Of a DNA stretch of 64,000 bases, positions 24,488 through 48,646 are shown piece after piece. The DNA is from a bacterium (GTDB lineage Bacteria; Patescibacteriota; Minisyncoccia; Phycocordibacterales; Phycocordibacteraceae), in assembly GCA_037200965.1 (NCBI GenBank), contig JBBCGK010000001.1:768001-832000 (forward strand), written 5' to 3'. Under the pieces are notes generated by a model. The model was not told where the DNA came from and did no database searches. It worked only from the letters and a program-made list of their open reading frames with translations. Position numbers and translations under genes: made by a program. The stretch's first letter is position 1. The number at the start of each line of letters is the position of its first letter.

Positions 24488-24497
24488 CGATATTTCT

Positions 24498-25424: not shown

Positions 25425-25425
25425 T

Positions 25426-28248: not shown

Positions 28249-28296
28249 AGCGAAAGGGCGGCACCGGGATGAACCCAGTGCCGCCCCGTAACATCT

Positions 28297-28740: not shown

Positions 28741-28872
28741 GGGATACTCCTTACGCAGAGGAACTGTTGCGGTCCGTACCATACACCCCGCAGGAGTGGA
28801 TTGTCGAGCGGACGAAACCGATATCGTTTATGAAAAAAAGGACGGGCCCGAAAGCCCGCCCTCCATCTGCCT

Positions 28873-29508: not shown

Positions 29509-29587
29509 GGGAACCTCCCCAATGTTTTTCCTGCCTCAATATAACTGTATATCTCTGTATGTCAAATAGCGACTCTTTGTCTGATTT

Positions 29588-30364: not shown

Positions 30365-30365
30365 A

Positions 30366-31124
30366 TCAGTTCTGGGTGAGCTTCACGAAAATATCCTCGA
30401 GCTTGCCGCCGCCGTAGCCGCTCGCGGGCGCGCTGTCGTCGTGAAGCGCGAGGATTTCCTGCATCGTGCCCTTGGCGACGATCTCGCCCTTGTTGATGAT
30501 CGCCACGTGCTTCGCGAGCCGCTCCGCTTCCTCGAGATAATGGGTCGTGAGGAGGATGGTGATGCCTGCTTTGGTAAGGGTCGTGAGATAGTCCCACATG
30601 CTTCTTCGAAGTTCCACGTCGACGCCTGCCGTCGGCTCGTCGAGGATGAGGAATTTCGGCTCATGGATGAGCGCGCGGGCGATCATGAGCCTTCGCTTCA
30701 TGCCGCCCGAGAGCTTGAAGCCGATCTGGCCGAGCTTATCGGAGAGTCCCATGTCGGCGAGGAGCTTCTCGGCGCGCGGTATCGCGATCTTTCTCGGGAT
30801 ACCGTAGTACCCCGCCTGGTTTACGAGAATATCCAAAGGCTTCTCGAAGGGATTGAAGTTGATCTCCTGCCCGCAGACTCCGATCATGGTACGTGCCTTT
30901 CCTGAATCCGTATCGATATCGTGCCCGAAGACCTTCACGCCGCCGCCTGTCTTGTTCACGAGTCCCGTGACGATGCCGATGATGGTCGTCTTCCCGGCAC
31001 CGTTGGGGCCAAGGAGCGCAAAGAAGTCGCCTGCGGGGACGGTGAGGGAGACGCCCTTGAGGGCTTCGGTGCCGGTATCGTATTTCTTCTTGAGGTCGGT
31101 AAGGACGAGCGCGGGTTCCTGCAT
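30366..31124 (-). CDS. ABC transporter ATP-binding protein (ABC-2 exporter partner).
   Basis: Walker A GPNGAGKTT, signature LSGGMKRRLMIARA, Walker B ILDEPTAGVD. Confidence 0.9.
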   Translation of the reverse strand: MQEPALVLTDLKKKYDTGTEALKGVSLTVPAGDFFALLGPNGAGKTTIIGIVTGLVNKTGGGVKVFGHDIDTDSGKARTMIGVCGQEINFNPFEKPLDILVNQAGYYGIPRKIAIPRAEKLLADMGLSDKLGQIGFKLSGGMKRRLMIARALIHEPKFLILDEPTAGVDVELRRSMWDYLTTLTKAGITILLTTHYLEEAERLAKHVAIINKGEIVAKGTMQEILALHDDSAPASGYGGGKLEDIFVKLTQN

Positions 31125-31309
31125 GAGGTTAGGAGTATAGCATATGCGACTTTTCCGGATTTTCTATGAATCTACGAAACGACCCTTGTTTCATAGGATG
31201 TGGAGAACTTTGCTTTCCGGGACCGGAAGAGTATAATAGAGGTCTAACAGCACCACCTCTGTCCTCACGGGCAGGGGTGGTTCTTTGTCTGGCTGGCTTA
31301 TAATTATCA

Positions 31310-31603
31310 AATGGCGAAAGAACGAGTTGCGGTGTACATCGACGGAGGCAACACCTAGATGTAAAGATCGCCGTGGATGTGGTCATCGGAGCCGCCGACG
31401 ACCTGTACGATACGGCGATTATCGTCAGTTCCGATACGGACCTCATACCGGCAGTTAAATATGTGCGCAACGGGAAGAAGAAGGCGGTCGAATACGTTGG
31501 CTTTGCAGGCTCGCCCTCGCTCGGCATGATCAAGGAGTGTAATCAGCAACGCCTTCCGGCGAAGGAAGACTTGTTGCCCTTTCAATATACAAAAGAGTCG
31601 TAA
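31310..31603 (+). pseudogene. Decayed NYN/LabA-like (PIN-like) nuclease gene: N-terminal MAKERVAVYIDGGN stub, in-frame stops, then a frameshifted C-terminal part.
   Basis: ATG GCG AAA GAA CGA GTT GCG GTG TAC ATC GAC GGA GGC AAC ACC TAG ATG TAA. A different frame then continues LDVKIAVDVVIGAADDLYDTAIIVSSDTDLIPAVKYVRNGKKKAVEYVGFAGS (the NYN D..I.VS.D.D motif). The middle of the domain is missing. Confidence 0.5.
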
Positions 31604-31618
31604 ACGACCGAAGGCGTT

Positions 31619-32344
31619 TTAGAGCGTGCGAAGTTCCTCGGTAAGCCGGTCTACGTAGGAAAAGAATTCCGGAGAGCGCGGATTGCGCGGCCGGGGAAGA
31701 TCGATCGCGATGGTCTTCCGTACCATCCCCGGATGTGCGCCCATGATGAGTATCTCGTCGGAGAGCTCTATCGCGTCCGGAATCAGGTGGTTCACCATCA
31801 GTATCGTCATGCCGTACTGCTTCCAGAGCTTAAGGAGGTCGGCTTTGAGTTCCTCGGCGGTGATGGTATCGAGGTTCGAGAACGGCTCGTCCATAAGGAG
31901 AAGATCGGGCGAGACGGCGAGCGCCCGGGCAAGCCCGACCCTCTGGCGCTGGCCGCCCGAGAGCGCGCCTGGATAGTGGCGCTCGAGGTGCGGAAGACCT
32001 ACCTCCATGAGTTTCTCCCGCGCTATCTTCTCGCGCTCCTTTCGGCCCATGCCTTCCATTTTGAGCCCGTATGCGACGTTTTCGAGGGCCGTGAGCCAGG
32101 GGAAGAGCGCGTAGTTCTGGAATACCATCGCCGGCTTCTTGAAGTCGCGCGCGATCTCGCCTTCGCGTACCGGAATGAGGCCGAGGATGGCGCGAAGCAG
32201 GGTCGATTTGCCCGCGCCCGAAGGCCCCGAGATCGAAACAAAGGAGCCCTTCTTCAAGAAGAATGAGATATTCCTGAGGACATCACCGTGCGCGAGGTCG
32301 TCGTGGAAGCCGATGCTGACGTCTTTGAGCGCGAGGGTGTTCAT
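31619..32344 (-). CDS. ABC transporter ATP-binding protein (SsuB/TauB/NrtD-like).
   Basis: Walker A GPSGAGKST, Q-loop, signature LSGGQRQRVGLARA, Walker B LLMDEPFSNLD. Confidence 0.85.
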   Translation of the reverse strand: MNTLALKDVSIGFHDDLAHGDVLRNISFFLKKGSFVSISGPSGAGKSTLLRAILGLIPVREGEIARDFKKPAMVFQNYALFPWLTALENVAYGLKMEGMGRKEREKIAREKLMEVGLPHLERHYPGALSGGQRQRVGLARALAVSPDLLLMDEPFSNLDTITAEELKADLLKLWKQYGMTILMVNHLIPDAIELSDEILIMGAHPGMVRKTIAIDLPRPRNPRSPEFFSYVDRLTEELRTL

Positions 32345-32345
32345 A

Positions 32346-33095
32346 TCATTCGCTGTAGTGTTTGGAGCTTTCGGCGAGAAGCGGAGCCCAGATAAGGCGG
32401 TTCAGCATGAAGACGAGGACGAGTATCGCGAGCGTTCCGGCGACCGTCGTCTGGCTTATGCCTTCCGTCCCGGCGGTCTTTATGAACGCGCCGAACCCGG
32501 TCGTGTCCGCGATGATCTCGGCACCGATGACCGCCTCCCAGCCGATCGCGATGCCGACGATGGAGCCCGTGAGGATGGCGGGGAAAGAGAGCGGGGCGAG
32601 ATAGTAGCAGATGCGGCGCCAGCCGTTCGCGCCGAAGATGGTCGCGGCGTCGTTTAAGTCGGCGTGTACGGTGCGTATCGCGGTCAGGGTCGAGAAGAGG
32701 ATCGGCCACACGATCGAACTCACGGCGAACAGTATGATCATCTCGTCCGTGAAGCCGAAGAAGTAGATGAAGATGGGGATGAGCGCGAAGGACGGCACAT
32801 TCTGGAGGACGTCGAAGAGGGGAAAGAGGAAGTCACTGAAGCGGCTCCAGCCTACAAGGAGCCCAAGCGCCGCCCCGAGCGCGAGCGCTATGACGTACGC
32901 GAGCGCGAGGCGGTACGTGGATCGTACGAGCGCTATGGCAAGCGTTGCCCAGTCTACGTTTGCGAAGTATCCGAAGACGCCGAATCCGATCGCGACGACC
33001 GCTATCGCGCCCACGATCGCCCATGCATGCCGGGCGTGCTTCGTGTGCGCCCGGTGTATGGCTTTCGTTGCCGGGTGCGCGAGGCTTCGTATCAT
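32346..33095 (-). CDS. ABC transporter permease (SsuC/TauC-like binding-protein-dependent transport family).
   Basis: 6 TM helices with an EAA-like loop, adjacent to the ATPase. No substrate-binding protein gene at this locus. Confidence 0.8.
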   Translation of the reverse strand: MIRSLAHPATKAIHRAHTKHARHAWAIVGAIAVVAIGFGVFGYFANVDWATLAIALVRSTYRLALAYVIALALGAALGLLVGWSRFSDFLFPLFDVLQNVPSFALIPIFIYFFGFTDEMIILFAVSSIVWPILFSTLTAIRTVHADLNDAATIFGANGWRRICYYLAPLSFPAILTGSIVGIAIGWEAVIGAEIIADTTGFGAFIKTAGTEGISQTTVAGTLAILVLVFMLNRLIWAPLLAESSKHYSE

Positions 33096-33168
33096 ACCTC
33101 CAGTTTACCGCGCTTAAGGTTGAATTACCGCCCGTTTTCCAGTATCGTCACCGAGTGCGGTATCATAT

Positions 33169-33242
33169 TGCCAGATCGTCTAAAGGTAGGACTCGAGACT
33201 CTGAATCTCGCTATCTAGGTTCGAATCCTAGTCTGGCAGCCA
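33169..33242 (+). tRNA. tRNA-Gln (anticodon CTG), CCA encoded.
   Basis: Acceptor TGCCAGA/TCTGGCA; anticodon stem CGAGA/TCTCG with loop CTCTGAA; T-arm CTAGG-TTCGAAT-CCTAG; G-CCA 3' end. Confidence 0.75.
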
Positions 33243-33398
33243 ATTTGAACTCTAAGCCTCCAGCCTTCAATATGAATGACGGAAAGCTTCAAACGGTTTT
33301 AAAAGGCGGTGCATCAAGGCAGGACTGAAAAGTCTCTAAAAGAAAACTTTAACGTGCACAACCTCCTCGAAAGAGGACGGAAAAGTAAGGGCAAGGCA

Positions 33399-35291
33399 AT
33401 GAAAATGGATATGAACAAACAAAGCTCAAACAATAAAAAAGTACACCTCACCTCCGCCAATCTCTCCGAGGAGAAGCTGTTTGAGCTACGCCGCATCCTT
33501 CCCGAAGCGTTCAGCGAAAACAAGATTGACTGGGAGAAGCTCCGCACCGTTCTTGGTGACGCAGTAGACGCCCATATCGAGAAGTTCGGCTTTACCTGGG
33601 CAGGAAAAAGCAACGCTATCAAGAATGTTTTGATACCAAGCAAAGCCACACTCAACCCCGCTCCCGACGAGAGCGTGAAGTTCGATGAAAGCGAGAATCT
33701 CTTTATCGAAGGCGACAACCTCGAAGTCTTGAAGCTCTTGCAAAAAGCGTACTTCGAGAAGGTGAAGATGATTTATATAGACCCGCCATACAACACGGGC
33801 GGCGACTTCGTGTATAAGGACAACTTTGCCGCACCGCTCGACAACTATCTCAAGCAGACCGGCCAGAAGAACGGCAACGGCGAGCATCTCACAACCAACA
33901 AGGAGACCAACGGCCGCTTCCACAGCGACTGGCTTTCAATGATGTACCCACGCCTCAAGCTCGCGTGGAATCTTTTGCGTGATGATGGAGTGATATTTGT
34001 TTCGATTGACGATAACGAAGTGCATCATTTGCGAATACTAATGAATGAGATTTTTGGTGAGGAAAACTTCATCACTAATTTTGTTTGGCACTCTAGTACA
34101 GGTGGTGGTATCAGAAGCAAGTTTGCAAACCAGTCTCATCAATACGTTCTATGCTATGCAAAGAGTGTAGAAGACGTTGAGATGTTCTATGCGCCTCTTT
34201 CTGAAGATGCGAAGAAGCAATATAAGAAAGAGGATGAAAAAGGAGTCTATCGGGAGAAGGATTTTGCTTGGAAAAACTCATCGTGGGGAGCAAATCAAAA
34301 ATACTTCATCGAGTGTCCTGATGGTGAAAAAGCGAGACCAAAGGACGGGTATCTTTACCGCTTCATCGAACCAACTTTCAAGGAGAGTCTGGCAAATAAT
34401 ATGGTTGTCTTCAAAGAAGCAAGAAATAGTCCACTGGTAAATGAAAAAGGCGAGCAATCAAAATGGAACATCTATATCAAAAAGTATTTAGGTGATGGGA
34501 CAGGTGCTCCTTCATCAGTCATTCCGCGAGATTTAGTAGGAATCAATAATGAAGGCACTACAGAACTCAATGAACTGTTTGGTTCGAGTTTGTTTGAAAG
34601 CCCGAAGAATGTCCGGCTTTTGACATACCTACTCTCGTTAGCAGATAGCGATGATGGCGACATAATCCTCGATTTCTTTGCTGGCTCTGGTAGCACCTCT
34701 CACGCAGTGATGGCTCTGAACCAAAAGGATGGAATCAATAGAAAGTGGATTGTGGTTCAACTTCCAGAAAAGACTGACACGGATAGTGCCGCGTACAAAG
34801 CTGGATACAAAACCATTGCTGAACTTTCTGTAGAACGCATACGTCGCGCCGCGAAAAAGCTGGATGTCCAAGACGGCTTCAAGGTATTTAGACTGGCAGC
34901 ATCAAACTACCCAGAGAATACTTTTGAGTTCGACCCAGACAAGGCCGAGGAAGAGAACAAGGCGGCCTTCGAGGATTATTTGAAGCAAGCAAAGCGCGCC
35001 AAGCTTATTGACGACCTAGACGAGACGAGCGTCATCTACGAAAACATCGTCAAGGAAGGATTCTCGCTCAACTCCAAGATTCAGGAAGGCGTGCCAGGAA
35101 ACAACAAGGTCTACACCATCACCGACGGCGACCGGCAGTTTTCTATCTGCCTCGACCGTTCGATTGATGACACGACCGTAAAGAACATCACGGAGTGGGC
35201 TAAAGGAGCGACCTTTATCTGCTTCGATAATGCGCTCTCTGACAGCCAGAAAGCAAACCTCGGCCTCCACGTGGAGCTGAAAACGATATAA
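33399..35291 (+). CDS. mod: Type III restriction-modification system methyltransferase subunit (Mod; N6-adenine MTase).
   Basis: DPPY catalytic motif (IYIDPPYNTGGDFVYKDNF) and SAM-binding FxGSG (DFFAGSGST). Directly upstream of, and 3 nt from, a res-like helicase/endonuclease gene. Start taken at MKMDMNK (33399). GC is lower than the host. Confidence 0.85.
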   Translation: MKMDMNKQSSNNKKVHLTSANLSEEKLFELRRILPEAFSENKIDWEKLRTVLGDAVDAHIEKFGFTWAGKSNAIKNVLIPSKATLNPAPDESVKFDESENLFIEGDNLEVLKLLQKAYFEKVKMIYIDPPYNTGGDFVYKDNFAAPLDNYLKQTGQKNGNGEHLTTNKETNGRFHSDWLSMMYPRLKLAWNLLRDDGVIFVSIDDNEVHHLRILMNEIFGEENFITNFVWHSSTGGGIRSKFANQSHQYVLCYAKSVEDVEMFYAPLSEDAKKQYKKEDEKGVYREKDFAWKNSSWGANQKYFIECPDGEKARPKDGYLYRFIEPTFKESLANNMVVFKEARNSPLVNEKGEQSKWNIYIKKYLGDGTGAPSSVIPRDLVGINNEGTTELNELFGSSLFESPKNVRLLTYLLSLADSDDGDIILDFFAGSGSTSHAVMALNQKDGINRKWIVVQLPEKTDTDSAAYKAGYKTIAELSVERIRRAAKKLDVQDGFKVFRLAASNYPENTFEFDPDKAEEENKAAFEDYLKQAKRAKLIDDLDETSVIYENIVKEGFSLNSKIQEGVPGNNKVYTITDGDRQFSICLDRSIDDTTVKNITEWAKGATFICFDNALSDSQKANLGLHVELKTI

Positions 35292-35293
35292 CT

Positions 35294-37924
35294 ATGAAGT
35301 TCAAGTTTGACGCAAACCAAGATTTTCAAATAAACGCAGTCAACGCCATCGTTGGCGTCTTTGAAGGTCAGCCGAAGCGTCAAAGTGTGGTAGTAAATGT
35401 GCCCGCACTTTCCGTTTCCGGCTCATTGCCGCTCCAAACTACATACGGCATCTATCCGAACGAGCTGACGCTTTCCGACGAGGAGGTGTTTGCCAACGTC
35501 TGGAAGATTCAAGAGCAAAACAAAATCGGCAATGGCGGCACGGTTGAGGAGTACGACTTTTCTATCGAGATGGAGACGGGTACGGGTAAGACGTATGTGT
35601 ACCTTCGTACCGTCTTTGAACTCAACAAGCAATACGGATGGAAGAAGTTTATCGTTCTCGTGCCGTCCGTCGCCATCCGCGAGGGCGTCATCAAGACGCT
35701 CCAAATCACCAAAGACCACTTCGCCGAGCTGTACGACAACGTGCCGTACCGCTTCTACGAGTACCAGTCCAAGAACATCTCGCAGGTGAAGCGCTTTGCG
35801 GAATCCAGCAACCTGGAGATTATGGTGATGACGGTAGGTGCGTTCAACAAGGACGCGAACGTGCTCTATGCCGCCCGCGACCAGATGCAGGGCGAGCAGC
35901 CTATCAGCTACATCCAGCGCAGCAACCCCGTCCTCATCCTCGACGAGCCGCAGAATATGGAAGGTGAAGCGACGAAGGAGGCGCTCAAGAACTTCAACGC
36001 GCTTGCACGCCTGCGATACTCCGCGACGCATCGCAATCCGTACAACCTCATGTACCAGCTCACGCCGTTCGATGCGTATCAGCTCGGCCTCGTAAAGAAG
36101 ATTGAGGTGTATTCCGTTACGGATGACGACACCGGCATCTCGCGCCCGTCGCTCAACCTCATCTCCGTTGAATCCGGCAAGGCGCTCAAGGCAAAGTTAG
36201 AGGCCATCGTGAAAGATGCCGACGGCGCATTGAAGCGCAAGAAGCTCACCGTCAAACAGAACGACGACCTCGCGCAGAAGACCGGCAACGACGTATACGC
36301 CGGCTATATCGTGGACGAGCTTGACGCCGATGCGCCAGACCTCGGGCAGATTGGTAGGATTCGCTTTCGCAACAACGTGGAGATTCGCCAGGGTGAAGGC
36401 GTAGCAAACAACAACGAGCAAGTGATGCGCGAGCAGATTGAGCAGACCATCCGCCGCCACTTCGAGAAACGCAACCAGCTCCGCGATATGGGCATCAAGG
36501 TGCTCTCCCTCTTTTTCATAGACAAGGTAGACAACTACGTTCAATCAGACGGGTTTATCCGCTCTGCGTTCATAGCCGAGTTCAATCGCCTCAAGAAAGA
36601 CTATGGCGCTGACGGCATGGACGTGGATACCGTCCACAAGGGATATTTCGCCAAGCGCGGCGAGGAGTATTTGGAGCGAGAGTCCAGCATCGCCGAGAAC
36701 CAGGAAGCATACGAGCTGATTATGAAGGACAAGGAGCGCCTGCTTTCCTTCGATGAGCCGACGGAGTTCATCTTCTCGCACTCCGCACTCAAGGAAGGAT
36801 GGGACAACCCAAACATTTTCAATATCTGCACCCTGCGCGAGACCGTTTCAGTCATCCGCAAGCGCCAGGAGATTGGCCGAGGTATGCGCCTCTGCGTCAA
36901 TCAGGACGGAGAGCGTATTTTCTTGCGCAGCGTCAACCTGCTCTCCGTGATTGCAAACGAGAGCTATACGGAATACGTCTCATCGCTCCAGGGCGAATAC
37001 GAGGAGGACGGTATCTACAAGTCTGCGCCGTTGCCGAACAATGCCAAGCGAAAGACCACGGTGAAGCTCAAGAAAGATTTTGATAAGGACACGGACTTTG
37101 CTGGTATCTGGGAACGCATCTCGAAGAAGACCCGCTATGTCGTGCAGGTTGATAGCGAGCGCGTCATCGAAGCGTCCGCAAAGCAGATTGCGAAGCTCCA
37201 TCTCGCAAAGCCCAAGATGCGCGTCGAGCGCGCGGGCGTGAACATCGCGGCCGAAGGCATCACCGCAAACATCGTAGGCACCCGTGCCGAGGATTTGAGC
37301 CAGACCAAACGCACCATTGACCCTATCGAACTCATCAAAAACGAGACCAAGCTGACGCGCCACACGGTCGCGGAGATTTTGGCGAAAGCGGACAATACCG
37401 ACTCCTTCCTCAAGAATCCCGAACGCTTCTGCTTCGAGGCAACGCGCATCATCAAGGCCGAGCTGGTGAAGGATTACGTTTCCCAGATTCGCTATGAGGT
37501 ACTGCCGGAGCAGTATGACCTCAAGCAGTTCGAGGACATCCCGAGCTACAAGGACGCGACGCACAAGGTGAACAACTCCATCTACGACGCCATCGTGTAT
37601 GACTCCGACGTGGAGAAGAACTTTGCCGTCGCCCTCGATGCCGACGAGCGCGTGAAGCTCTTTATCAAGATGCCCAACTGGTTCAAGGTGAACACGCCTA
37701 TCGGCGGCTACAACCCCGACTGGGCAATCGTTACGGCCAAGCGAGACCTCCAGGGCAATGAGGAGAAGGAGCGCGTGTATTTCGTGATTGAGACGAAGGG
37801 CGACATCTCCAACATGCGCGAGAGCGAAGGACAAAAGATTGCTTCCGCCAAAAAGCACTTTGAAGTCATCGAGGTGAACTACAAGGAGGTCGAGAATTAT
37901 GGACAGTTTGCTGAACAACTATGA
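35294..37924 (+). CDS. res: Type III restriction enzyme Res subunit (SF2 helicase + endonuclease).
   Basis: Helicase motif I METGTGKTYV and motif II ILDEPQN, further SF2 motifs, and a C-terminal nuclease region. About 876 aa. Confidence 0.85.
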   Translation: MKFKFDANQDFQINAVNAIVGVFEGQPKRQSVVVNVPALSVSGSLPLQTTYGIYPNELTLSDEEVFANVWKIQEQNKIGNGGTVEEYDFSIEMETGTGKTYVYLRTVFELNKQYGWKKFIVLVPSVAIREGVIKTLQITKDHFAELYDNVPYRFYEYQSKNISQVKRFAESSNLEIMVMTVGAFNKDANVLYAARDQMQGEQPISYIQRSNPVLILDEPQNMEGEATKEALKNFNALARLRYSATHRNPYNLMYQLTPFDAYQLGLVKKIEVYSVTDDDTGISRPSLNLISVESGKALKAKLEAIVKDADGALKRKKLTVKQNDDLAQKTGNDVYAGYIVDELDADAPDLGQIGRIRFRNNVEIRQGEGVANNNEQVMREQIEQTIRRHFEKRNQLRDMGIKVLSLFFIDKVDNYVQSDGFIRSAFIAEFNRLKKDYGADGMDVDTVHKGYFAKRGEEYLERESSIAENQEAYELIMKDKERLLSFDEPTEFIFSHSALKEGWDNPNIFNICTLRETVSVIRKRQEIGRGMRLCVNQDGERIFLRSVNLLSVIANESYTEYVSSLQGEYEEDGIYKSAPLPNNAKRKTTVKLKKDFDKDTDFAGIWERISKKTRYVVQVDSERVIEASAKQIAKLHLAKPKMRVERAGVNIAAEGITANIVGTRAEDLSQTKRTIDPIELIKNETKLTRHTVAEILAKADNTDSFLKNPERFCFEATRIIKAELVKDYVSQIRYEVLPEQYDLKQFEDIPSYKDATHKVNNSIYDAIVYDSDVEKNFAVALDADERVKLFIKMPNWFKVNTPIGGYNPDWAIVTAKRDLQGNEEKERVYFVIETKGDISNMRESEGQKIASAKKHFEVIEVNYKEVENYGQFAEQL

Positions 37925-38169
37925 ACTTCTATGGAGTCTTTATCGGGATAGACAGATACGCCTCTCCAAGTATCAACATGTTCGTGGACGAAGTGGCGGC
38001 AAACCGGAAGCTCGACACCGACAAGGTTGCGGCGCTCGCTGATGGCCGCACCTACGTTGGCACGGATGCCGTGAGCAACGGGCTGATTGACGGCATCGGC
38101 AGCATCCCCGAAGCGTCCGACTATCTCACTCAACAGATTGGTGAGCAGGCGTCTGTGTGTTGGTACTAA
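37921..38169 (+). pseudogene. Possible 3' remnant of a signal peptide peptidase A (S49, sppA) gene.
   Basis: ADGRTYVGTDAVSNGLIDGIGSIPEASDYL resembles the SppA C-terminal G-R-V-W-T-G..A...GL-V-D..G motif. Only 82 codons, beginning exactly at the res stop. Confidence 0.3.
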
Positions 38170-38174
38170 AAATT

Positions 38175-38699
38175 ATGAACCTCTACGTCATCGCAGCAAT
38201 CATCATCGCCCTCGTCATCGTACTCGCTATACTCAAGGCGGTTGTTGAAGGCAGTGGTGGAGACAAGGAAAAGTCGAAGTACCGCTACACTCGCAAACAG
38301 TTTTTCCTTACCCGCGCCGAGCACGAGTGCTATGACGCCCTCGTTGCAGCGGTTGGCGATAAGTATTACGTCTTCGCGCAGGTACACCTTCCGACCATTC
38401 TCGATAACAAGGTGAAGGGGCAAGATTGGCGTGCCGCGCTTGCGCACGTCAGCCGCAAGTCCGTTGACTTCGTGCTCTGCGACAAGGCATACATTTCGCC
38501 GAAGCTCGCCATTGAGCTGGACGACAAGAGCCACGAGCGACCCGACCGGCAAGAACGGGACCGAGAAGTTGAGCGTATCTTGAGTGATGCAGGACTACCG
38601 CTTCTTCGACTGGAGAATCGCGGGGCGTTCAATACTGCGGAGCTGCTACAGAGGATTGATGATGCAGTGAAAGGTTTTGGTGAAAAAACCTCCTCCTAG
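38175..38699 (+). CDS. DUF2726-like (restriction-endonuclease-fold / NERD-like) protein with N-terminal TM.
   Basis: LTRAEHECYDAL ... YYVFAQVHL ... VDFVLCDK ... AIELDDKSH ... E..RD pattern, recalled from DUF2726 proteins found in defence islands. Confidence 0.55.
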   Translation: MNLYVIAAIIIALVIVLAILKAVVEGSGGDKEKSKYRYTRKQFFLTRAEHECYDALVAAVGDKYYVFAQVHLPTILDNKVKGQDWRAALAHVSRKSVDFVLCDKAYISPKLAIELDDKSHERPDRQERDREVERILSDAGLPLLRLENRGAFNTAELLQRIDDAVKGFGEKTSS

Positions 38700-39100
38700 A
38701 GAGGGCATCCCCCGCCGAAAGGTCGGAAGCAAAAAGGAAACTACCACCACCCAGATTCCATATTTTCGTAGAAAACATTGAAGATGCACGGGGTATACCC
38801 CTCTGATGTACCTCTGCGTGTCTTCTGCTACAGAATAAGCACTAGAAAGCACACAGTGCCGGATAAAGGGAACACTGGTAAAGCAAGGCCAGGCGCGCGA
38901 CAGTGCTCCTGGCCTTGTGCGGCAGTGGGGTGGCTATGCGGCTACTACCGAGAGTAATTGCTGCATCTGCTGGAGAGAAACGGTAGGATATGGGAACATC
39001 CAGCCAGTTGATAGTTCGTAGTTCCTCCCTCCAAGCCAGCCAACTTGAGGCAGGTTCGGTAGTCCGAGGTGCATCAAAATCGTCTGTTACAATTTTCGTA

Positions 39101-39634
39101 ATGAAAACCATCCTTGTCATTCGACATTCTCATTGGGATGGGCAAACAGATACTCTCAGCCTGGAAGGTATAGCTGATTGCGAAGCAAAGAAGACCACTC
39201 TTGGATCTTTTACTACAGTTATTGCCTCTCCCTTCAATCGCACGGTAGAAGCGGCTCGGCTCCTAAGTGGTAATGATCCAGTTGTCGATGACCGAGCATC
39301 TATGCTCGCCTTAACACCGGAAGAGGCTGCCTGGCTGAAGGAGGCTCGCAAGAACTCTCCGCTCGGAGTGGCGGGGGTTATTTTCGGTCGACCAGATTTT
39401 CTAGAACCAGTAAAAGTCGCTGGAGAAAAGTGTCTTTCGCTTATAGAAGAGACGCTCGAAAAGTTACCTCTTGATGGGAGAGCACTTATTGTCTCGCATG
39501 ACGGGACTATGGTTGCAGTCGAGAAGTTACTCAAAAATGAACCGTTTTCTGGTCCGTTAGACCATACCTACGGAAACCTTGAAGGATTTGAGGTTGATGC
39601 TAACCTTAAATTCACTAAGCTCGCCTTCACATGA
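39101..39634 (+). CDS. Histidine phosphatase superfamily (phosphoglycerate-mutase-like) protein.
   Basis: ILVIRHSHWDG aligns with the RHG catalytic motif; about 178 aa. Confidence 0.5.
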   Translation: MKTILVIRHSHWDGQTDTLSLEGIADCEAKKTTLGSFTTVIASPFNRTVEAARLLSGNDPVVDDRASMLALTPEEAAWLKEARKNSPLGVAGVIFGRPDFLEPVKVAGEKCLSLIEETLEKLPLDGRALIVSHDGTMVAVEKLLKNEPFSGPLDHTYGNLEGFEVDANLKFTKLAFT

Positions 39635-40608
39635 TCGTCCCTGCAAAAGAACTCCTAGATTTTGCCTACAAGAAATTCTCTGTGGGTGCCTATAACATCC
39701 ACAACCTCGAGCAGTTGATGGGACTCCTCTATGGAAGCCAAAAATCAAACGCGCCCTTTATCGTTCAGGCGTACCCGAGCACCCTCAACTACACGGACGC
39801 TAGCATGCTCGAAGCCCTTTTCCATGAGGCAGACAAGCTTTTTCCTGACCTGATTTTTGCCGTCAGTATTGATCATGGCGATGAAGCTACATGTATGAGA
39901 GCTATTGATTCGGGAGCGTACTCACACGTGATGATAGACGCTTCAATGGAAACCTTTGAGAAGAATATCGAGATTACGAAACGTGTCGTCGATCATGCGC
40001 ATTCTCGCGGCGTATCCGTGGAAGGTATGGTAGGAAAACTCGGTGGTCTGGAAAAGCACATGAAAGTTCTCGACGTATCCGAAGTGCAATTGACCACCGT
40101 TGAACAGGCACGAGAGTTTGCGGAGAGAACTGGCTGCGACAGTCTTGCTGTGTCTATCGGTACACTACATGGTGCTAACAAGGCTCCAGACGGCATACCT
40201 CGAAAGGTAGACCTCGATCGTCTCAAGGAAATAGGTGAAGCGCTCGAAGGTACTCCACTTGTTATGCACGGTTCGTCCTGCCTGCCACAGGAGGAAGTAA
40301 GACGGGTAGACGCCGCAGGAGGAAAGCTTGAACGCGTCGGAGGAATGGATGAAACACAGCAAAGTGAGGTACATAAACTTGGAGTTGCTCAGATAAATGT
40401 AAACAGCGATGGCCTTCTTATCTGGACGCGCTCGATCAGAGAATATCTGAGGGACTATCCAGGCGTGATTGATTTACGTGAGTCGGGCAAGGCTTTTATG
40501 CAGGAGTATGCGAGTTTCATAGCTCACAAGAATGATGTGTTCGGCTCATCCGGCAAACTTGATGCGTTGACAGAACACTACGAAACCCCATGGACATTAA
40601 TGAACTAG
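39631..40608 (+). CDS. fba: Class II fructose-bisphosphate aldolase family protein.
   Basis: VSIDHGDE (zinc-binding His), HGSS, and a GTLHG motif. About 325 aa. Confidence 0.85.
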   Translation: MIVPAKELLDFAYKKFSVGAYNIHNLEQLMGLLYGSQKSNAPFIVQAYPSTLNYTDASMLEALFHEADKLFPDLIFAVSIDHGDEATCMRAIDSGAYSHVMIDASMETFEKNIEITKRVVDHAHSRGVSVEGMVGKLGGLEKHMKVLDVSEVQLTTVEQAREFAERTGCDSLAVSIGTLHGANKAPDGIPRKVDLDRLKEIGEALEGTPLVMHGSSCLPQEEVRRVDAAGGKLERVGGMDETQQSEVHKLGVAQINVNSDGLLIWTRSIREYLRDYPGVIDLRESGKAFMQEYASFIAHKNDVFGSSGKLDALTEHYETPWTLMN

Positions 40609-41348
40609 AAAAAATCGATACGACCGTTATCAGCGACCTAATCGTCTCGCGTCTTCCATTGCCACTGCAAACATCACAAAAAGAGAATTTACTCTCGCCC
40701 AAGCCTCAAGCGTTACAAGACGTCATTGCTGATATCGAAAAGATAGAACATGAATGGAAGCTTGATACTGCTGACGAAGGTCACACTTACGGACGTAAGC
40801 ATGCTGGTGAGACTATTCAACTTTGGTCTGTGCCGCCTAAGAGTGCGCAAGTACTGGAGAATCTCGTTGTACTTACGGGCGCTAAGACCATTCTTGAAAT
40901 AGGAACCTCAGCAGGATACGCTGCGCTTTTCTTAGCTCATGGTGCCAAAGCAAATGGCGGACATGTTTATACGATCGAGCTTCTTAAGGAGAAAGCTGAC
41001 CTTGCTCGGGGTAATTTTGATAAGTCTGGCCTTGATAACATCACGCTTATAGAAGATGAGGCGTCAAAAGTCTTGAGCGCTTGGGATAATGGGAAAATAG
41101 ACTTTGTTTTTCTCGATGCCGATAAGGAAAACTACGGAAAATATTTTGACCAACTTGTACCACTTATGAATATTAGTGGTCTTATCGTAGCTGATAACGT
41201 GAATGACTACGGTCACATGATGGAAGATTATTTGCAGAAGGTAAGTGGTACGCATCTTCCAAAGACGAGAACTGATCACAGGGTTAAGAGCTATTACCTA
41301 GCAATGCTTGAAAATGGGTTGATGGTTACTCAGAAGATATCTGAATAG
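40590..41348 (+). CDS. Class I SAM-dependent O-methyltransferase (catechol-OMT-like, family 3).
   Basis: ILEIGTSAGYAALFLA, DFVFLDADKENY and the LIVADNV motif. Confidence 0.8.
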   Translation: MDINELEKIDTTVISDLIVSRLPLPLQTSQKENLLSPKPQALQDVIADIEKIEHEWKLDTADEGHTYGRKHAGETIQLWSVPPKSAQVLENLVVLTGAKTILEIGTSAGYAALFLAHGAKANGGHVYTIELLKEKADLARGNFDKSGLDNITLIEDEASKVLSAWDNGKIDFVFLDADKENYGKYFDQLVPLMNISGLIVADNVNDYGHMMEDYLQKVSGTHLPKTRTDHRVKSYYLAMLENGLMVTQKISE

Positions 41349-41526
41349 TTTTATTATTGAGAATTATTTTACTTTTCAAGCATCCTGAGAAATTAGGTCC
41401 AGAAGTACATATTTGGACTTCTCAAAAGGTAGTTTGGGCTCATATCTGCGACAGCCGACCTCAGCGAGAGCAGGACTAGCGTTCCAACACCGTCCCAGAC
41501 TCCCGCTCGATAAGCTTACTTTCTTC

Positions 41527-42126
41527 ATGGAGAAAATAGAGCAGCTGCGGGATGAGGTGCACAATCTATATGCCCAAAAACTTCCTGGCCGTGCTGACTG
41601 GGCTGACTGGATCTATGATAAGCATGTCGTTCTTGTTGGCAATGAAGCAAGGAAGATAGCCGAAATGTACGGAGGAAGTCCGGAGCTTGCAGAGGCTGCT
41701 GGACTTTTGCACGATGTGGCCGACGCAGTAATGAAGCGGCAGGATCCGAATCATGAAAAGGAAAGCCTGCGTATTGCACGGGAGATGCTGCAGAAGACCG
41801 GATTTGGCGACAAGGAGATAGCCATAGTGGTAGACGATGCGATCGCGAAGCATAGTTGCCATGGAGAGACTCGGCCCGTCTCTGCAGAGGGGAAGGCAAT
41901 GGCAGCGGGAGACGGTGTCGTTCATCTCACAAGTGATTTTTATAAGATTGCCGAGGCGGGGAAACTTGGTCATAAATCACCACGAGAGGTTGCAGAGTGG
42001 GCCCTGCCAAAACTAGAACGCGATTTCACCAATAAGATTGCCTATGATGATTTAAGGGAGGAGATACGGCCAGATTACGAACAACTTAGGAAACACTTTC
42101 AGGATCTAGCCTCGGCCGGGGTGTAG
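41527..42126 (+). CDS. HD domain phosphohydrolase.
   Basis: H...LLHDVAD motif. Start at MEKIEQL (ATG 41527). Confidence 0.7.
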   Translation: MEKIEQLRDEVHNLYAQKLPGRADWADWIYDKHVVLVGNEARKIAEMYGGSPELAEAAGLLHDVADAVMKRQDPNHEKESLRIAREMLQKTGFGDKEIAIVVDDAIAKHSCHGETRPVSAEGKAMAAGDGVVHLTSDFYKIAEAGKLGHKSPREVAEWALPKLERDFTNKIAYDDLREEIRPDYEQLRKHFQDLASAGV

Positions 42127-42179
42127 AGGTCCAACTTCGTACCGGACAGCCAGCCGACAGTTTCGCCCGCTTGCCATCC

Positions 42180-43300
42180 TGCACAAGTTCAGATACATAT
42201 GGCACTCCTCCTAACTGAGGAGCGATGCGTCAATTCAACATACTGAAGGATACCGAGGGCTGGTTGTATATGCGCGAGCGGAGCATACGCTTCCTGCATA
42301 TGAGGAACAACGACGAGGTGCGGCATCGGGTCAAGGTGCTGGACTTCTGGAAAACGCACGGGGAGCGTGCGGCCAGGGACGCCTTCAGCGTCTCTCGCCG
42401 CACGCTCTTCCGTTGGCAGGCGAAGCTCGACCGCGCGCACGGGAGACTCGACGCGCTCGATCCCAAGTCGACGGCACCGAAGAATCGGAGGAGACGCATC
42501 GTCCTCCCCGAGGTCGAGACGTTCATCCTGAAGGAGCGCGCGGAGCATCCGAGGCTCGGCAAGGCGAAGCTCGCAGCCCTGCTGCGGGAGGACGGGTACC
42601 GGGTATCCGAATCGTATGTCGGGAGGGTCGTCGCGGACCTCAAGAGGAGAGGGCTGCTGCTCCCGCACAAGCCGCTCTCATACTATGCGCGAAGCGGCAC
42701 GTATCGGGAGAAGCCCGTATCGAAGCGCACGAAGCTGCGCAGGCGGCACAAGCGGGGCATGGAGCTCGACACCGTCGTCCGCTTCATCGACGGCGTGAAG
42801 CGGTACGTCCTGACCGCCATCGATGTCGAGAAGAAGTTCGCCTTCGCCGGCGCGTATACCGTCCACTCCTCCGCGTCCGCCGCCGATTTCCTCGCGCGCG
42901 TCATCGCGGTGTGCCCCTTCGACATCACGGAGCTCCAGACCGACAACGGCCCGGAGTTCGCCAAGAACTTCGAGGCGGGGTGCCGCGCCCTCGGCCTCAC
43001 CCACTTCAATACGTTTCCCCGCAGCCCGAAGATGAACGCGTTCGTCGAGCGGTTCAACCGGACGATCTCGGAGGACTGCATCATGCTCAATCGGCCGCTC
43101 CTGCGGGACGACGTCGCGGCATTCAACCTGAAGCTGGTCGACTGGCTGCTCTGGTACAACGCCCGGCGTCCGCACGAGTCCCTGGGACAGGTGCCGCCGC
43201 TCCGGTATATACTCTCCTCATTAACGGCCGAGGAGTGCCAGAGGTACTGGACGCGTACACATCCTTGACAGAATTTAGACCAGGCTGCATTGTGGCGTCG
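42180..43300 (+). mobile_element. IS481-family insertion sequence (boundaries approximate; terminal inverted repeats not resolved).
   Basis: A single transposase ORF whose GC content differs from the left flank. I could not confidently pair terminal IRs by eye. Confidence 0.5.
42225..43268 (+). CDS. IS481-family DDE transposase (integrase core).
   Basis: N-terminal HTH, then an rve-type core with TDNGPEF and a downstream catalytic Glu (FNRTISED). High GC, unlike the lower-GC island to its left. Confidence 0.85.
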   Translation: MRQFNILKDTEGWLYMRERSIRFLHMRNNDEVRHRVKVLDFWKTHGERAARDAFSVSRRTLFRWQAKLDRAHGRLDALDPKSTAPKNRRRRIVLPEVETFILKERAEHPRLGKAKLAALLREDGYRVSESYVGRVVADLKRRGLLLPHKPLSYYARSGTYREKPVSKRTKLRRRHKRGMELDTVVRFIDGVKRYVLTAIDVEKKFAFAGAYTVHSSASAADFLARVIAVCPFDITELQTDNGPEFAKNFEAGCRALGLTHFNTFPRSPKMNAFVERFNRTISEDCIMLNRPLLRDDVAAFNLKLVDWLLWYNARRPHESLGQVPPLRYILSSLTAEECQRYWTRTHP

Positions 43301-48617: not shown

Positions 48618-48646
48618 GAATTGTTATTTCTACTGCACCTTCAGAA

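What the first reader, a model, noticed from the sequence alone, without database searches (positions are those of the whole stretch)
33169..43300. Lower-GC genomic island inserted at tRNA-Gln: Type III R-M, sppA remnant, DUF2726-like gene and cargo, ending at an IS481 transposase
Immediately 3' of tRNA-Gln (CCA at 33240-42) the GC content drops. A Type III mod/res pair follows (33399..37924), then an 82-codon fragment that resembles only the C-terminus of SppA and begins at the res stop, a DUF2726-like restriction-endonuclease-fold protein with a TM anchor, a histidine phosphatase, a class II aldolase, an O-methyltransferase and an HD hydrolase. The island ends at a high-GC IS481-family transposase. 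This is classic tRNA-targeted horizontal acquisition of a defence island. The sppA stub suggests the R-M cassette replaced or truncated a resident gene.
Basis: partly seen in the sequence, partly recalled or inferred. Interest (0 to 1): 0.55.

Follow-up and report, generated by a model that had tools for sequence, protein, structure and literature searches.

The report
Decayed defence island beside tRNA-Gln
A 10-kb low-GC stretch next to a glutamine tRNA gene in a tiny Patescibacteria (CPR) bacterium is an ordinary patchwork island: an intact Type III restriction system, the remains of a larger defence operon that lost about 3.7 kb, a small metabolic gene cassette and a later insertion sequence. 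The 'sppA stub' is the scar of that deletion, not a broken housekeeping gene.

Summary
The 8.9-kb block 33243-42179 has GC 0.50, against 0.57 for the rest of the window, and is lower than any equal-sized window outside it.

- **No att pair or integrase.** The window has no integrase gene and no repeat of the tRNA 3' end.
- **The IS481 element is a later insertion.** It spans 42180-43259, has its own 5-bp target duplication (CATCC), and does not define the island's end.
- **The 'sppA stub' is a deletion scar.** A metagenomic contig (L071) whose Res is 90% identical carries an intact, translationally coupled operon: mod, res, a 1027-aa PHP/ABC ATPase (PplA-like), a full S49 peptidase and DUF2726. 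The window matches it up to the res stop and again from the last 189 nt of the S49 gene. About 3.7 kb in between is missing and 56 nt of unrelated filler sits there.
- **The mod-res cassette is mobile among CPR bacteria.** It is 88% identical in DNA to a copy in an unrelated context, and each copy has a different Mod target-recognition domain.
- **The four metabolic genes are a separate, lower-GC module.**

The island itself is ordinary. The lead worth following is the ATPase, S49 peptidase and nuclease add-on to restriction operons.

The parts
33169..33242 (+). tRNA-Gln(CTG) with encoded CCA. This is the left anchor of the variable region.
   Evidence: ARAGORN and Rfam tRNA at 60.6 bits. Logan contig L002 is 100% identical to window 24221-33242 and ends exactly at base 33242.
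33243..33398 (.). 156-nt spacer between the tRNA and mod (GC 0.44). It resembles no upstream region of the related cassettes.
   Evidence: DNA homology to L071/L072 begins at 33405 and to L069 at 33436. No recombinase remnant was found by tblastn.
33399..35291 (+). Type III mod (630 aa), intact. The target-recognition domain at about 34065-34664 (GC 0.41) is unique to this copy.
   Evidence: PADLOC MTase_III 595 bits. The DPPYNTG and FFAGSGST motifs are present, and it aligns with the Mod of PDB entry 6k0w and with EcoP15I Mod. Residues ~31-210 and ~500-630 are 83-100% identical to the L069 and L072 Mods, while residues ~240-410 are only 3-37% identical.
35294..37924 (+). Type III res (876 aa), intact: SF2 helicase plus a C-terminal PD-(D/E)xK endonuclease domain.
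   Evidence: PADLOC REase_III 797 bits; Pfam ResIII and RE_endonuc. It aligns with EcoP15I Res, PDB 4zcf, with TGTGKT, DEPQ and PDW...ETK motifs. Homologues at 94% and 90% identity exist in other contexts.
37925..37980 (+). 56-nt filler at the deletion junction, with no match in any fetched locus apart from copies of this same region.
   Evidence: blastn-short search of all loci fetched up to that call. It lies between the two blocks of homology to L071.
37921..38169 (+). 82-codon chimeric ORF. It consists of a start codon overlapping the res stop, 18 filler codons, and the last 63 codons of an S49 (SppA-like) peptidase gene. It is a pseudogene remnant.
   Evidence: Pfam Peptidase_S49 positions 96-150 of 154 only. 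Residues 19-82 align with the extreme C-termini of 270-330-aa S49 proteins; the best is P0018, 75% identity to its residues 211-274 of 274. Window 37981-38169 matches the last 189 nt of the L071 S49 gene. The GASAAYW nucleophile motif lies upstream of the break.
38157..38699 (+). DUF2726 protein (180 aa): an N-terminal membrane helix plus a Vsr/DUF559-like PD-(D/E)xK nuclease domain. It is the last gene of the former operon.
   Evidence: Pfam DUF2726 104 bits, with MTES_1575 and DUF559 hits. It is 81% identical to the L071 homologue, and it overlaps the S49 ORF upstream by the same 13 nt in both loci. Codon differences are 69 synonymous and 33 non-synonymous. Hydrophobic helix at residues 12-30.
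38700..39072 (.). Conserved non-coding tail of the operon. The homology to L071 ends at 39072, which marks the right border of module A.
   Evidence: blastn window 37981-39072 = L071 8288-9417. In the alignment, a block of about 130 nt is roughly 90% identical. No gene is called there and there is no Rfam match.
39101..39634 (+). Histidine-phosphatase-family protein (PhoE-like). The true start is probably 39101.
   Evidence: Pfam His_Phos_1 hit below the cut-off. Homologues of 173-180 aa at 44-53% identity are annotated PhoE or His_Phos_1. The stop overlaps the aldolase start.
39631..40608 (+). Divergent class II ketose-bisphosphate aldolase family protein.
   Evidence: Pfam F_bP_aldolase 225 bits. 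It scores below every NCBIfam equivalog cut-off.
40590..41348 (+). SAM-dependent O-methyltransferase (Methyltransf_3). It overlaps the aldolase gene by 19 nt.
   Evidence: Pfam hit at 93 bits.
41413..42126 (+). HD-domain phosphohydrolase, the last gene of the low-GC block.
   Evidence: Pfam HD 40.7 bits. The gene is called in GCA_015689235.1 but not in the source record's annotation.
42180..43259 (+). IS481-type insertion sequence, 1080 bp. Termini are TGCAC...GTACA with imperfect inverted repeats of 31 and 30 nt. It is flanked by a 5-bp target duplication, CATCC, at 42175-42179 and 43260-43264. The transposase ORF 42225-43268 reads through the right end.
   Evidence: Inverted-repeat alignment and duplication. 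The best NCBIfam match is transpos_IS481 at 169 bits. Two independent Logan contigs start at 43230, which is k-1 (30 nt) before the inferred IS end, as expected for a multi-copy repeat.

Best explanation
The region is a composite variable region downstream of tRNA-Gln(CTG) in a Kaiserbacteria-like Patescibacterium (source: GCA_037975565.1, a 960-kb contig). It was built from at least three separate events.

**Module A (33399-39072)** is a horizontally mobile defence operon led by a Type III restriction-modification pair.
- In its intact form the operon reads mod, res, PHP/ABC ATPase (PplA-like), membrane S49 peptidase, membrane-anchored DUF2726 nuclease, all translationally coupled.
- In this genome an internal deletion of about 3.7 kb removed the ATPase gene and roughly the first 209 codons of the peptidase gene.
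- The start codon that overlaps the res stop now reads through 18 filler codons into the last 63 peptidase codons. That product is the '82-aa SppA fragment'.
- mod and res remain intact. Presumably Mod methylates an asymmetric site set by its private target-recognition domain, and the Mod-Res complex cuts unmodified DNA, as in EcoP15I.
- DUF2726 is intact and shows purifying selection.

**Module B (39101-42126)** is a separate cassette of still lower GC. It encodes a histidine phosphatase, a divergent class II aldolase, an O-methyltransferase and an HD hydrolase. The first three genes overlap, so they probably act together on a sugar phosphate or a similar small molecule. The substrate is unknown.

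**An IS481-type element** later transposed into the spacer right of module B and duplicated CATCC.

How modules A and B reached this site is inferred, not shown. The most likely route is decay of, or recombination within, elements that target the tRNA-Gln 3' end with a large serine recombinase. Such elements sit at this position in related genomes.
For: Deletion scar:
- L071/L072 carry the five-gene operon with 4-, 4-, 4- and 13-nt overlaps.
- Window 33405-34064 and 34665-37924 match L071 up to the res stop at 78-80% identity. Window 37981-39072 matches L071 8288-9417 at 71%. L071 4585-8287 has no counterpart.
- The DUF2726 gene overlaps the S49 ORF upstream by the same 13 nt in both loci.
- The missing gene has PHP motifs (DLHIHT, SGSDAH), a Walker A at residue 364, a Walker B at 926, and a PADLOC Ppl hit of 73.5 bits.

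S49 genes in defence or mobile operons:
- L045: type I R-M operon with the S49 gene directly after hsdR; 75% identical to the stub.
- L063: ABC ATPase, Shedu SduA_C nuclease and S49 peptidase on one strand.
- L053: a serine-recombinase element at tRNA-Gln that carries an S49 peptidase.

Mobility of mod-res:
- L069 shares 88% DNA identity over window 33436-34069 and 34668-37895 only, and sits between Pirin and Band_7 genes.
- Res homologues of 73-94% identity occur in Adler-, Buchanan- and Kaiserbacteria. The neighbouring housekeeping permease is only 62-73% identical to the nearest species.
- The three Mod copies carry three different target-recognition domains.

Intactness: Mod and Res motifs are present. 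DUF2726 codon differences are 69 synonymous and 33 non-synonymous.

IS: inverted repeats, the 5-bp duplication and the assembly breakpoints.

Composition.

Hot spot.
Against: - No island-free ('empty site') relative was found. Every genome holding these exact flanks carries the same arrangement, so the right border is not fixed. hyp217 has a lowish GC3 of 0.57.
- L071 is only about 80% identical in DNA. The stub is closer to the S49 of L045 (76% of 63 residues) than to that of L071 (52%). The direct ancestor may therefore have carried a different gene between res and the S49 gene, and the 3.7-kb figure is an estimate.
- L069 shows that mod-res also travels without the accessory genes.
- The cargo cassette was not found as a unit elsewhere. 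Homologues of the phosphatase have other neighbours.
- Nothing here shows expression or activity of any gene.
Confidence: 0.75

Rival explanations
1. A single defence island was integrated by a tRNA-targeting integrase at tRNA-Gln. The incoming R-M cassette landed in, or replaced part of, a resident housekeeping sppA. The IS481 marks the distal end.
For: The block starts at the first base after the tRNA and has a foreign composition. More distant S49 homologues (40-50% identity) in CPR genomes are housekeeping genes, flanked for example by typA, msrA and rluA.
Against: - The window has no integrase, no att repeat and no recombinase remnant.
- The S49 tail and DUF2726 are collinear with an intact R-M-linked operon elsewhere, down to the 13-nt overlap between the S49 ORF and the DUF2726 gene.
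- The closest S49 relatives lie inside R-M operons.
- The IS carries its own target duplication.
- The block has at least two compositional modules, and the homology border at 39072 falls between them.
Confidence: 0.1
2. The whole block is the decayed remnant of one integrative element of the type seen in L022, L013 and L053. That element would have had a large serine recombinase gene overlapping the tRNA-Gln 3' end and S49 peptidase among its cargo, and would have lost the recombinase and its distal att site.
For: - Three related or CPR loci carry such recombinase genes converging on, and overlapping, tRNA-Gln(CTG) by 30-61 nt.
- In L013 the recombinase is split into two ORFs, which suggests decay.
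- The L053 element carries an S49/NfeD1b peptidase that is 52% identical to the stub.
- Partial repeats of the tRNA end lie 100-170 nt downstream of the tRNA in L007, L011 and L016.
Against: - No trace of a recombinase lies in the 156 nt between the tRNA and mod, or anywhere else in the window.
- The stub is on the opposite strand to the S49 gene in L053.
- The modules differ in composition and have separate homology borders.
- The R-M operon occurs elsewhere without any recombinase.
Confidence: 0.3
3. The region is native DNA. Its low GC would reflect gene-specific constraints or local mutation bias, not horizontal acquisition.
For: - The window has other low-GC patches, at 17-21 kb and 48.5-50 kb.
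- res has a native-like GC3 of 0.76.
- The phosphatase's nearest homologues sit on contigs whose gene content looks CPR-like; their taxonomy was not determined.
Against: - The cassette shares 88% DNA identity with a contig of GC 0.50 in an unrelated gene context.
- None of the ten genes is present beside the permease and tRNA-Gln in the related species examined.
- The block's GC is lower than any equal-sized window in the remaining 54 kb.
Confidence: 0.04
4. The 82-codon ORF is a functional small protein, for example a retained C-terminal S49 module co-translated with Res, rather than a scar.
For: The ORF is open, in frame and start-coupled to res (ATGA). Its 63 homologous codons hold no stop or frameshift and are 76% identical to an intact relative. 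NCBI annotates it as a gene.
Against: - It lacks the nucleophile-bearing core and the membrane helix.
- No other protein of this architecture turned up among 1.8 billion representatives. The short hits were not examined; I assume they are contig-end fragments.
- Identical copies in three samples say nothing about selection.
Confidence: 0.08

Closest known systems
EcoP15I-type Type III restriction-modification systems
   Same: The gene order is mod then res. Mod is a beta-class N6-adenine methyltransferase with DPPY and FxGxG motifs and a central variable target-recognition domain. Res combines an SF2 helicase with a C-terminal PD-(D/E)xK nuclease. Both align with the solved EcoP15I chains.
   Different: It occurs in a Patescibacteria genome. 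Its target-recognition domain is private, so the recognition site is unknown. No simple-sequence repeats that would give phase variation were found. In relatives it is extended by three more coupled genes.
Ppl (PplA) single-gene anti-phage system (PADLOC model 'Ppl'; the description as a PHP domain plus ATPase is from my own knowledge of Gao et al. 2020)
   Same: The gene deleted here, intact in L071, has PHP-type motifs at the N-terminus and an ABC ATPase with a long coiled-coil insert. It hits the PADLOC Ppl model at 73.5 bits.
   Different: The match covers only the C-terminal half of the model. The gene is not stand-alone: it is coupled to a Type III R-M upstream and to S49 and DUF2726 downstream. 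It is absent from the window itself.
SppA / peptidase family S49 (signal peptide peptidase; also phage prohead proteases and NfeD-type proteases)
   Same: The stub aligns with the last ~60 residues of 36K-type SppA proteins. The intact relatives have an N-terminal membrane helix and the GxSxxYW nucleophile motif.
   Different: Only the C-terminal quarter is present. The nearest intact relatives are encoded inside restriction operons or mobile elements, not in housekeeping contexts.
tRNA-linked genomic islands and genomic islands of Patescibacteria (PMC12455944 reports hundreds of such islands, including one with a full type I R-M)
   Same: It is an atypical-composition block directly 3' of a tRNA gene. 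It carries defence and metabolic cargo and is absent from related species.
   Different: There is no integrase and no flanking direct repeats. It is mosaic, with an internal deletion and a later IS insertion. In related genomes the local integrases are large serine recombinases, not tyrosine integrases.
DUF2726 / Vsr-DUF559 branch of PD-(D/E)XK nucleases (PMC3424549, PMC3710099)
   Same: There is a strong Pfam DUF2726 match plus weaker MTES_1575 and DUF559 matches. The literature describes it as a restriction-endonuclease-fold DNase found near mobile elements and fused to Abi-type N-terminal domains.
   Different: Here it is membrane-anchored and is the terminal gene of a restriction-led operon. 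On proteobacterial plasmids its homologues (about 41% identity) stand alone.
IS481 family insertion sequences
   Same: It has a single DDE (rve) transposase ORF with an N-terminal HTH, is about 1.08 kb long, and has imperfect terminal inverted repeats and a short target duplication. The ORF runs through the right end.
   Different: It scores below the NCBIfam IS481 cut-off (169 against 224 bits). The left terminus reads TGCAC rather than TGT.

Membership tests
Type III restriction-modification system | Mod subunit: N6/N4 DNA methyltransferase with motif IV (DPPY) before motif I (FxGxG) and a variable target-recognition domain between them | tested here: met
   Pfam N6_N4_Mtase 116 bits; PADLOC MTase_III 595 bits. 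DPPYNTG and FFAGSGST are seen in the alignment to PDB 6k0w, and EcoP15I Mod (4zcf) also matches. The central region varies among three homologues.
Type III restriction-modification system | Res subunit: SF2 helicase motifs plus a C-terminal PD-(D/E)xK endonuclease domain | tested here: met
   Pfam ResIII and RE_endonuc (115 bits); PADLOC REase_III 797 bits. TGTGKT, DEPQ and PDW...ETK align to EcoP15I Res. It scores below the NCBIfam equivalog cut-off (281 against 564 bits).
Type III restriction-modification system | mod immediately upstream of res in one operon | tested here: met
   The mod stop is at 35291 and the res start at 35294, on the same strand.
Type III restriction-modification system | Hemi-methylation of an asymmetric site and ATP-dependent cleavage that needs two inversely oriented unmodified sites | not testable with these tools
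   This needs methylome sequencing and biochemistry.
tRNA-integrated genomic island (integrase-mediated) | Starts at the 3' end of a tRNA gene | tested here: met
   The composition break and the end of synteny fall at 33243, the base after the CCA.
tRNA-integrated genomic island (integrase-mediated) | Integrase or recombinase gene next to the tRNA | tested here: not met
   No such ORF or remnant lies in 33243-43300 or elsewhere in the window. Relatives do have serine recombinase genes at this position.
tRNA-integrated genomic island (integrase-mediated) | Direct repeat of the tRNA 3' end at the distal border (attL/attR) | tested here: not met
   There is no second copy in 64 kb at up to 3 mismatches in 25 nt. 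The only 16-nt hit, at 48750 with 3 mismatches, is at chance level.
tRNA-integrated genomic island (integrase-mediated) | Atypical composition and absence from related genomes | tested here: met
   GC 0.501 against 0.572, below every equal-sized outside window. Tetranucleotide divergence is above the 95th percentile. None of the genes lies near the permease and tRNA-Gln in 24 related loci. No strain-level empty site was available.
Peptidase family S49 (SppA) | Catalytic core carrying the serine nucleophile (GxSxxYW) | tested here: not met
   The ORF covers only Pfam model positions 96-150 of 154. In the intact relative the motif (IGASAAYW) lies before residue 209, where homology to the stub begins.
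IS481 family insertion sequence | Single-ORF DDE (rve) transposase closest to the IS481 family | tested here: inconclusive
   The best NCBIfam hit is transpos_IS481, E 1e-49 at 169 bits, below the 224-bit cut-off. The next is IS3 at 88 bits. Pfam finds HTH_32, rve and rve_3.
IS481 family insertion sequence | Terminal inverted repeats and a short target-site duplication | tested here: met
   Inverted repeats of 31 and 30 nt with 24 matches and one indel. CATCC is duplicated at 42175-79 and 43260-64. Logan contig starts at 43230 fit an IS end at 43259.
DUF2726 (PF10881) | Score above the Pfam gathering threshold over the full domain | tested here: met
   103.8 bits against a cut-off of 24.7, covering model positions 4-123 of 126.
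Ppl (PplA) defence system | PHP-domain plus ABC-ATPase protein present in the locus | tested here: not met
   It is absent from the window. Only the overlapping start codon position survives. It is present in the homologous operon of L071.

The most novel reading that the evidence does not exclude
A PplA-like PHP/ABC ATPase, a membrane S49 peptidase and a restriction-endonuclease-fold nuclease (DUF2726, or a Shedu-type SduA_C domain in L063) may form an undescribed anti-phage module. It would ride on the 3' end of restriction-modification operons in Patescibacteria. The window would hold a decayed copy in which only the nuclease survives, under purifying selection, alongside an active Type III system.
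Probability: 0.3. Interest if true: 0.6.

Novelty: new member of a known kind. Interest (0 to 1): 0.35.

Why it matters
**Annotation.** The 82-aa 'S49 family peptidase' in the public record is a deletion scar, not a gene and not a broken housekeeping sppA.

**CPR genome biology.** The region gives a base-level picture of how defence DNA turns over in an ultra-small genome:
- a mod-res cassette shared at 88% DNA identity between unrelated contexts;
- target-recognition domains swapped in every copy;
- accessory genes lost by internal deletion;
- an IS added afterwards.

It also shows that the 3' side of tRNA-Gln(CTG) is a recurrent landing site for large-serine-recombinase elements in this group.

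**Discovery.** The intact relatives point to a coupling of ATPase, S49 peptidase and nuclease with restriction systems. I found no report of this coupling in the searchable literature, so it is a testable candidate defence module.

Tried and rejected
- **Repeats of the tRNA 3' end.** Searches with 25-mer and 16-mer patterns at up to 3 mismatches, plus a general repeat search, found no att pair.
- **Word-indexed homologue search with the 82-aa ORF.** It returned only the ORF itself. The exhaustive representative search was needed.
- **Is the four-gene cargo a conserved operon?** Homologues of the phosphatase (44-53% identity) sit on contigs with CPR-like gene content but have other neighbours. 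Only L040 has an adjacent HD gene. PADLOC and PHROGs gave only generic methyltransferase or aldolase hits.
- **Empty site.** Exact-protein look-ups of both flanks returned only contigs with the same arrangement, or contigs broken at the tRNA end and at the IS end.
- **Right-flank genes in relatives.** hyp217, hyp343 and NMT1-OmpA were not found within 10 kb of the permease in any related species.
- **DUF2726 on plasmids.** Homologues at about 41% identity stand alone, with no S49 or ATPase neighbour, so they are uninformative.
- **Viral contigs.** These were searched with the S49, ATPase, Res and DUF2726 proteins. Only one Res/Mod locus (L075) was found, and no homologue of the accessory genes was detected in it.
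- **The 56-nt filler.** It matched nothing outside copies of this region. My impression that 'GVFIGIDRY' looks like the start of a caspase-like domain rests on memory and was not tested.
- **Conserved tail 38700-39072.** There is no Rfam hit, and a two-sequence fold is not informative.
- **AlphaFold model of DUF2726.** A single-sequence run gave mean pLDDT 59, too low for a fold search, so none was run.
- **The L071 ATPase against PDB sequences.** No hits.

Full report
**Observation.** ARAGORN and Rfam both place a tRNA-Gln(CTG) at 33169-33242, with CCA encoded at 33240-42. GC is 0.586 in the 9 kb to the left. It drops to 0.44 in the 156-nt spacer after the tRNA, stays at 0.41-0.55 as far as 42126, and jumps to 0.63 in the insertion sequence.

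The 8,937-bp block 33243-42179 has GC 0.501, against 0.572 for the rest of the window. None of the 181 equal-sized windows outside it falls below 0.535. Tetranucleotide divergence from the rest of the window exceeds the outside 95th percentile over 33.0-36.5 kb and 38.0-42.5 kb, and is intermediate between those stretches.

- Type III mod, 33399-35291;
- Type III res, 35294-37924;
- an 82-codon ORF, 37921-38169, that matches only the last third of the Peptidase_S49 model and starts on the res stop;
- DUF2726, 38157-38699, with one N-terminal hydrophobic helix;
- a histidine phosphatase, a class II aldolase, an O-methyltransferase and an HD hydrolase;
- an IS481-like transposase.

**Source and relatives.** The exact proteins occur on a 960-kb contig of GCA_037975565.1. 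They also occur in GCA_015689235.1 and in two Logan assemblies, always in the same arrangement.

The housekeeping ABC permease left of the tRNA is 62-73% identical to its counterparts in Candidatus Kaiserbacteria, Paceibacterota and other Patescibacteria MAGs. The host is therefore a CPR bacterium with a small genome.

Several of these relatives have tRNA-Gln(CTG) beside the same permease. None has any of the ten island genes, or the window's right-flank genes, within 10 kb. No strain-level empty site could be found.

**No att pair, no integrase.** The last 25 or 16 nt of the tRNA have no second copy in the 64-kb window above chance, and no direct repeats bracket the block. No integrase ORF or remnant is present. 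The defining features of integrase-mediated tRNA islands are therefore not met.

The site is nevertheless a demonstrable hot spot in this group. Large serine recombinase genes converge on tRNA-Gln(CTG) and overlap its 3' end by 30-61 nt in three loci:
- L022;
- L013, where the gene is split into two ORFs;
- L053, where the element also carries an S49 peptidase.

In L007, L011, L012 and L016 a partial copy of the tRNA end lies 100-170 nt downstream of the tRNA. What follows the tRNA differs in every relative.

**The IS is a later, simple insertion.** The element spans 42180-43259. It has imperfect terminal inverted repeats (TGCAC... and ...GTACA, 24 matches and one indel over 31 nt) and is flanked by a 5-bp duplication, CATCC.

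Two independent Logan contigs (L037, L038) are 100% identical to the window and both begin at 43230. That is k-1 = 30 nt before the inferred right end, assuming Logan's assembly k-mer is 31 (from my own knowledge). This is the breakpoint expected when a repeat shared by several loci ends at 43259.

The IS composition looks native. The DNA on its two sides was contiguous before insertion, so the IS does not define the island's end.

**The sppA stub.** An exhaustive profile search shows that residues 19-82 of the ORF align with the extreme C-termini of 270-330-aa S49 proteins. The best is P0018, at 75% identity to its residues 211-274 of 274.

That protein is encoded directly after hsdR in a type I restriction operon that also contains a ClpP-like gene (L045). 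DNA identity to the window is 75% over the last 191 nt and stops at the stop codon.

The decisive comparison came from Res homologues. P0187 is 90% identical to the window's Res and lies in contigs L071/L072. There it is part of a five-gene operon with overlapping stops and starts: mod, res, a 1027-aa protein, a full-length S49 peptidase (271 aa) and DUF2726 (182 aa).

The 1027-aa protein has these features:
- PHP-type motifs at the N-terminus;
- a Walker A motif at residue 364;
- a long coiled-coil insert;
- a Walker B motif at residue 926;
- a PADLOC Ppl hit.

The window aligns with L071 from the mod start to the res stop, except for the Mod target-recognition domain. It aligns again from the last 189 nt of the S49 gene through DUF2726 and about 370 nt of non-coding tail, ending at 39072. 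L071 4585-8287 has no counterpart in the window, and 56 nt of unrelated filler sits in that position.

The 82-codon ORF is therefore made of three parts: the start codon that overlaps the res stop, 18 filler codons, and the last 63 S49 codons in frame. It lacks the membrane helix and the GASAAYW nucleophile region.

This is a deletion scar inside a defence operon, not a resident gene clipped by an incoming cassette. One caveat applies. The stub is closer to the S49 of L045 (76%) than to that of L071 (52%), so the direct ancestor's middle gene, and the exact size of the deletion, are inferred.

**Mobility of mod-res.** P0186 is 94% identical to the window's Res and lies in L069/L070 between Pirin and a 166-aa/Band_7 pair. 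DNA identity to the window is 88% over 33436-34069 and 34668-37895 and nil outside those stretches.

The three Mod proteins are 83-100% identical in their N- and C-terminal parts but only 3-37% identical over residues ~240-410. That is three different target-recognition domains. The window's own domain is the lowest-GC segment, at 0.41.

Res homologues of 73-77% identity are named from Adler-, Buchanan- and Kaiserbacteria. Mod and Res keep all canonical motifs and align with EcoP15I. No phase-variable repeats are present.

**DUF2726.** The protein is 81% identical to the L071 copy. Codon differences are 69 synonymous and 33 non-synonymous. A distant homologue directly follows a Type III res in L060. 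The sister contig L057 has a TIR-domain gene pair at the same place instead.

The literature describes DUF2726 only as a Vsr-like restriction-endonuclease-fold DNase of unknown role, found near mobile elements and fused to Abi-type domains (PMC3424549, PMC3710099).

In L063 an ABC ATPase, a Shedu-type SduA_C nuclease and an S49 peptidase lie on one strand. S49 genes thus occur in four independent defence or mobile operons (L045, L053, L063, L071). More distant CPR S49 genes are housekeeping. I found no paper linking S49 peptidases to restriction or anti-phage systems.

**Cargo module.** Homology to L071 ends at 39072. From 39101 the genes are a histidine phosphatase, an aldolase and an O-methyltransferase with overlapping stops and starts, followed by an HD hydrolase 65 nt further on. 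GC is 0.43-0.51 and GC3 is 0.40-0.50.

The aldolase scores below every NCBIfam equivalog cut-off. Homologues of the phosphatase occur on contigs with CPR-like gene content but with other neighbours. I read this as a separately acquired small-molecule (sugar-phosphate) cassette of unknown substrate. Patescibacteria are reported to gain metabolic genes through islands, mostly from other Patescibacteria (PMC12455944).

**Verdict.** This is an ordinary, mosaic, partly decayed genomic island at a tRNA-Gln hot spot in a CPR genome. The mechanism ('classic' tRNA integration, IS as terminus, truncated resident sppA) is largely not supported.

The most interesting product is indirect. The intact relatives reveal restriction operons extended by a PplA-like ATPase, a membrane S49 peptidase and a membrane-anchored nuclease.

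Noticed in passing
L007 174-316(-), L016 7515-7658(-), L012 9007-9148(-), L008 3060-3214(+); not in the window: A conserved element of about 145 nt lies just downstream of tRNA-Gln(CTG) in related Kaiserbacteria-like genomes. Its terminal stem copies the tRNA's acceptor stem and co-varies with it. RNAalifold gives 47 pairs, 12 with compensatory changes among only three sequences. A covariance model found a fourth full-length copy (49.6 bits). There is no Rfam family for it and ARAGORN does not call it. It may be a tRNA-like RNA gene or an att-bracketed relic.
   Followed up: partly
window 38700-39072 (especially ~38955-39072) = L071 9013-9417: The non-coding tail after DUF2726 is conserved between the two operons. 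A block of about 130 nt is roughly 90% identical, better conserved than the coding DNA around it (71-80%). No gene is called there and there is no Rfam hit. Short ORFs on both strands are partly conserved. Its function is unknown.
   Followed up: partly
L022 148-1572; L013 3457-5038(-); L053 11063-12796: Large serine recombinase genes (Resolvase, Recombinase and Zn-ribbon domains) converge on tRNA-Gln(CTG) and overlap its 3' end by 30-61 nt in three CPR loci. This implies a family of integrative elements that rebuild the tRNA end. The L053 element carries Nmad3, an S49/NfeD1b peptidase and an AAA_25 protein.
   Followed up: partly
L045 74-8474 (Logan SRR13617040): A type I restriction operon with unusual inserts: hsdM, a ClpP-like protease, hsdS, a 268-aa unknown, hsdR, an S49 peptidase and a 73-aa unknown, all on one strand with 1-12-nt spacers or overlaps. 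It therefore holds two ClpP/crotonase-fold peptidases.
   Followed up: no
L063 4-3320: An ABC ATPase (its C-terminal 378 aa is 42% identical to the L071 ATPase), a Shedu SduA_C nuclease and an S49 peptidase lie on one strand. This is a second nuclease type in the same apparent module.
   Followed up: partly
L012 3673-5385: A single 570-aa ORF fuses a LexA DNA-binding domain, a Peptidase_S24 domain and an N6_N4 DNA methyltransferase. It lies in a low-GC patch about 4 kb from tRNA-Gln in a relative.
   Followed up: no
window 48500-50000; 20000-21500; 17000-18500: There are further low-GC, high-divergence patches: GC 0.45-0.49, with tetranucleotide divergence 0.151 at 48.5-50 kb. One adjoins the tRNA-Met/Asp/Thr cluster at 20.7-22.3 kb. 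They may be other small islands.
   Followed up: no
window 41413-42126 and 41566-41973(-): The source record's gene calls omit the HD-domain gene and give an opposite-strand 135-aa ORF with no Pfam hit instead. The identical DNA in GCA_015689235.1 has the HD gene called.
   Followed up: yes
window 33242, 37867, 43230 (ends of Logan contigs L002, L004, L037/L038): Assembly-graph breakpoints fall on three boundaries:
- the last base of the tRNA;
- 30 nt before the point where homology to the L069 cassette ends (37896);
- 30 nt before the IS end.
This suggests that alternative joins or extra copies exist in those samples.
   Followed up: partly
L057 7132-9233 vs L060 10836-16642: Two closely related contigs (neighbouring SNase gene 83-85% identical) carry different defence cargo at the same site. 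L057 has a TIR-domain protein plus a 264-aa protein. L060 has mod, a 197-aa protein, res and DUF2726.
   Followed up: partly
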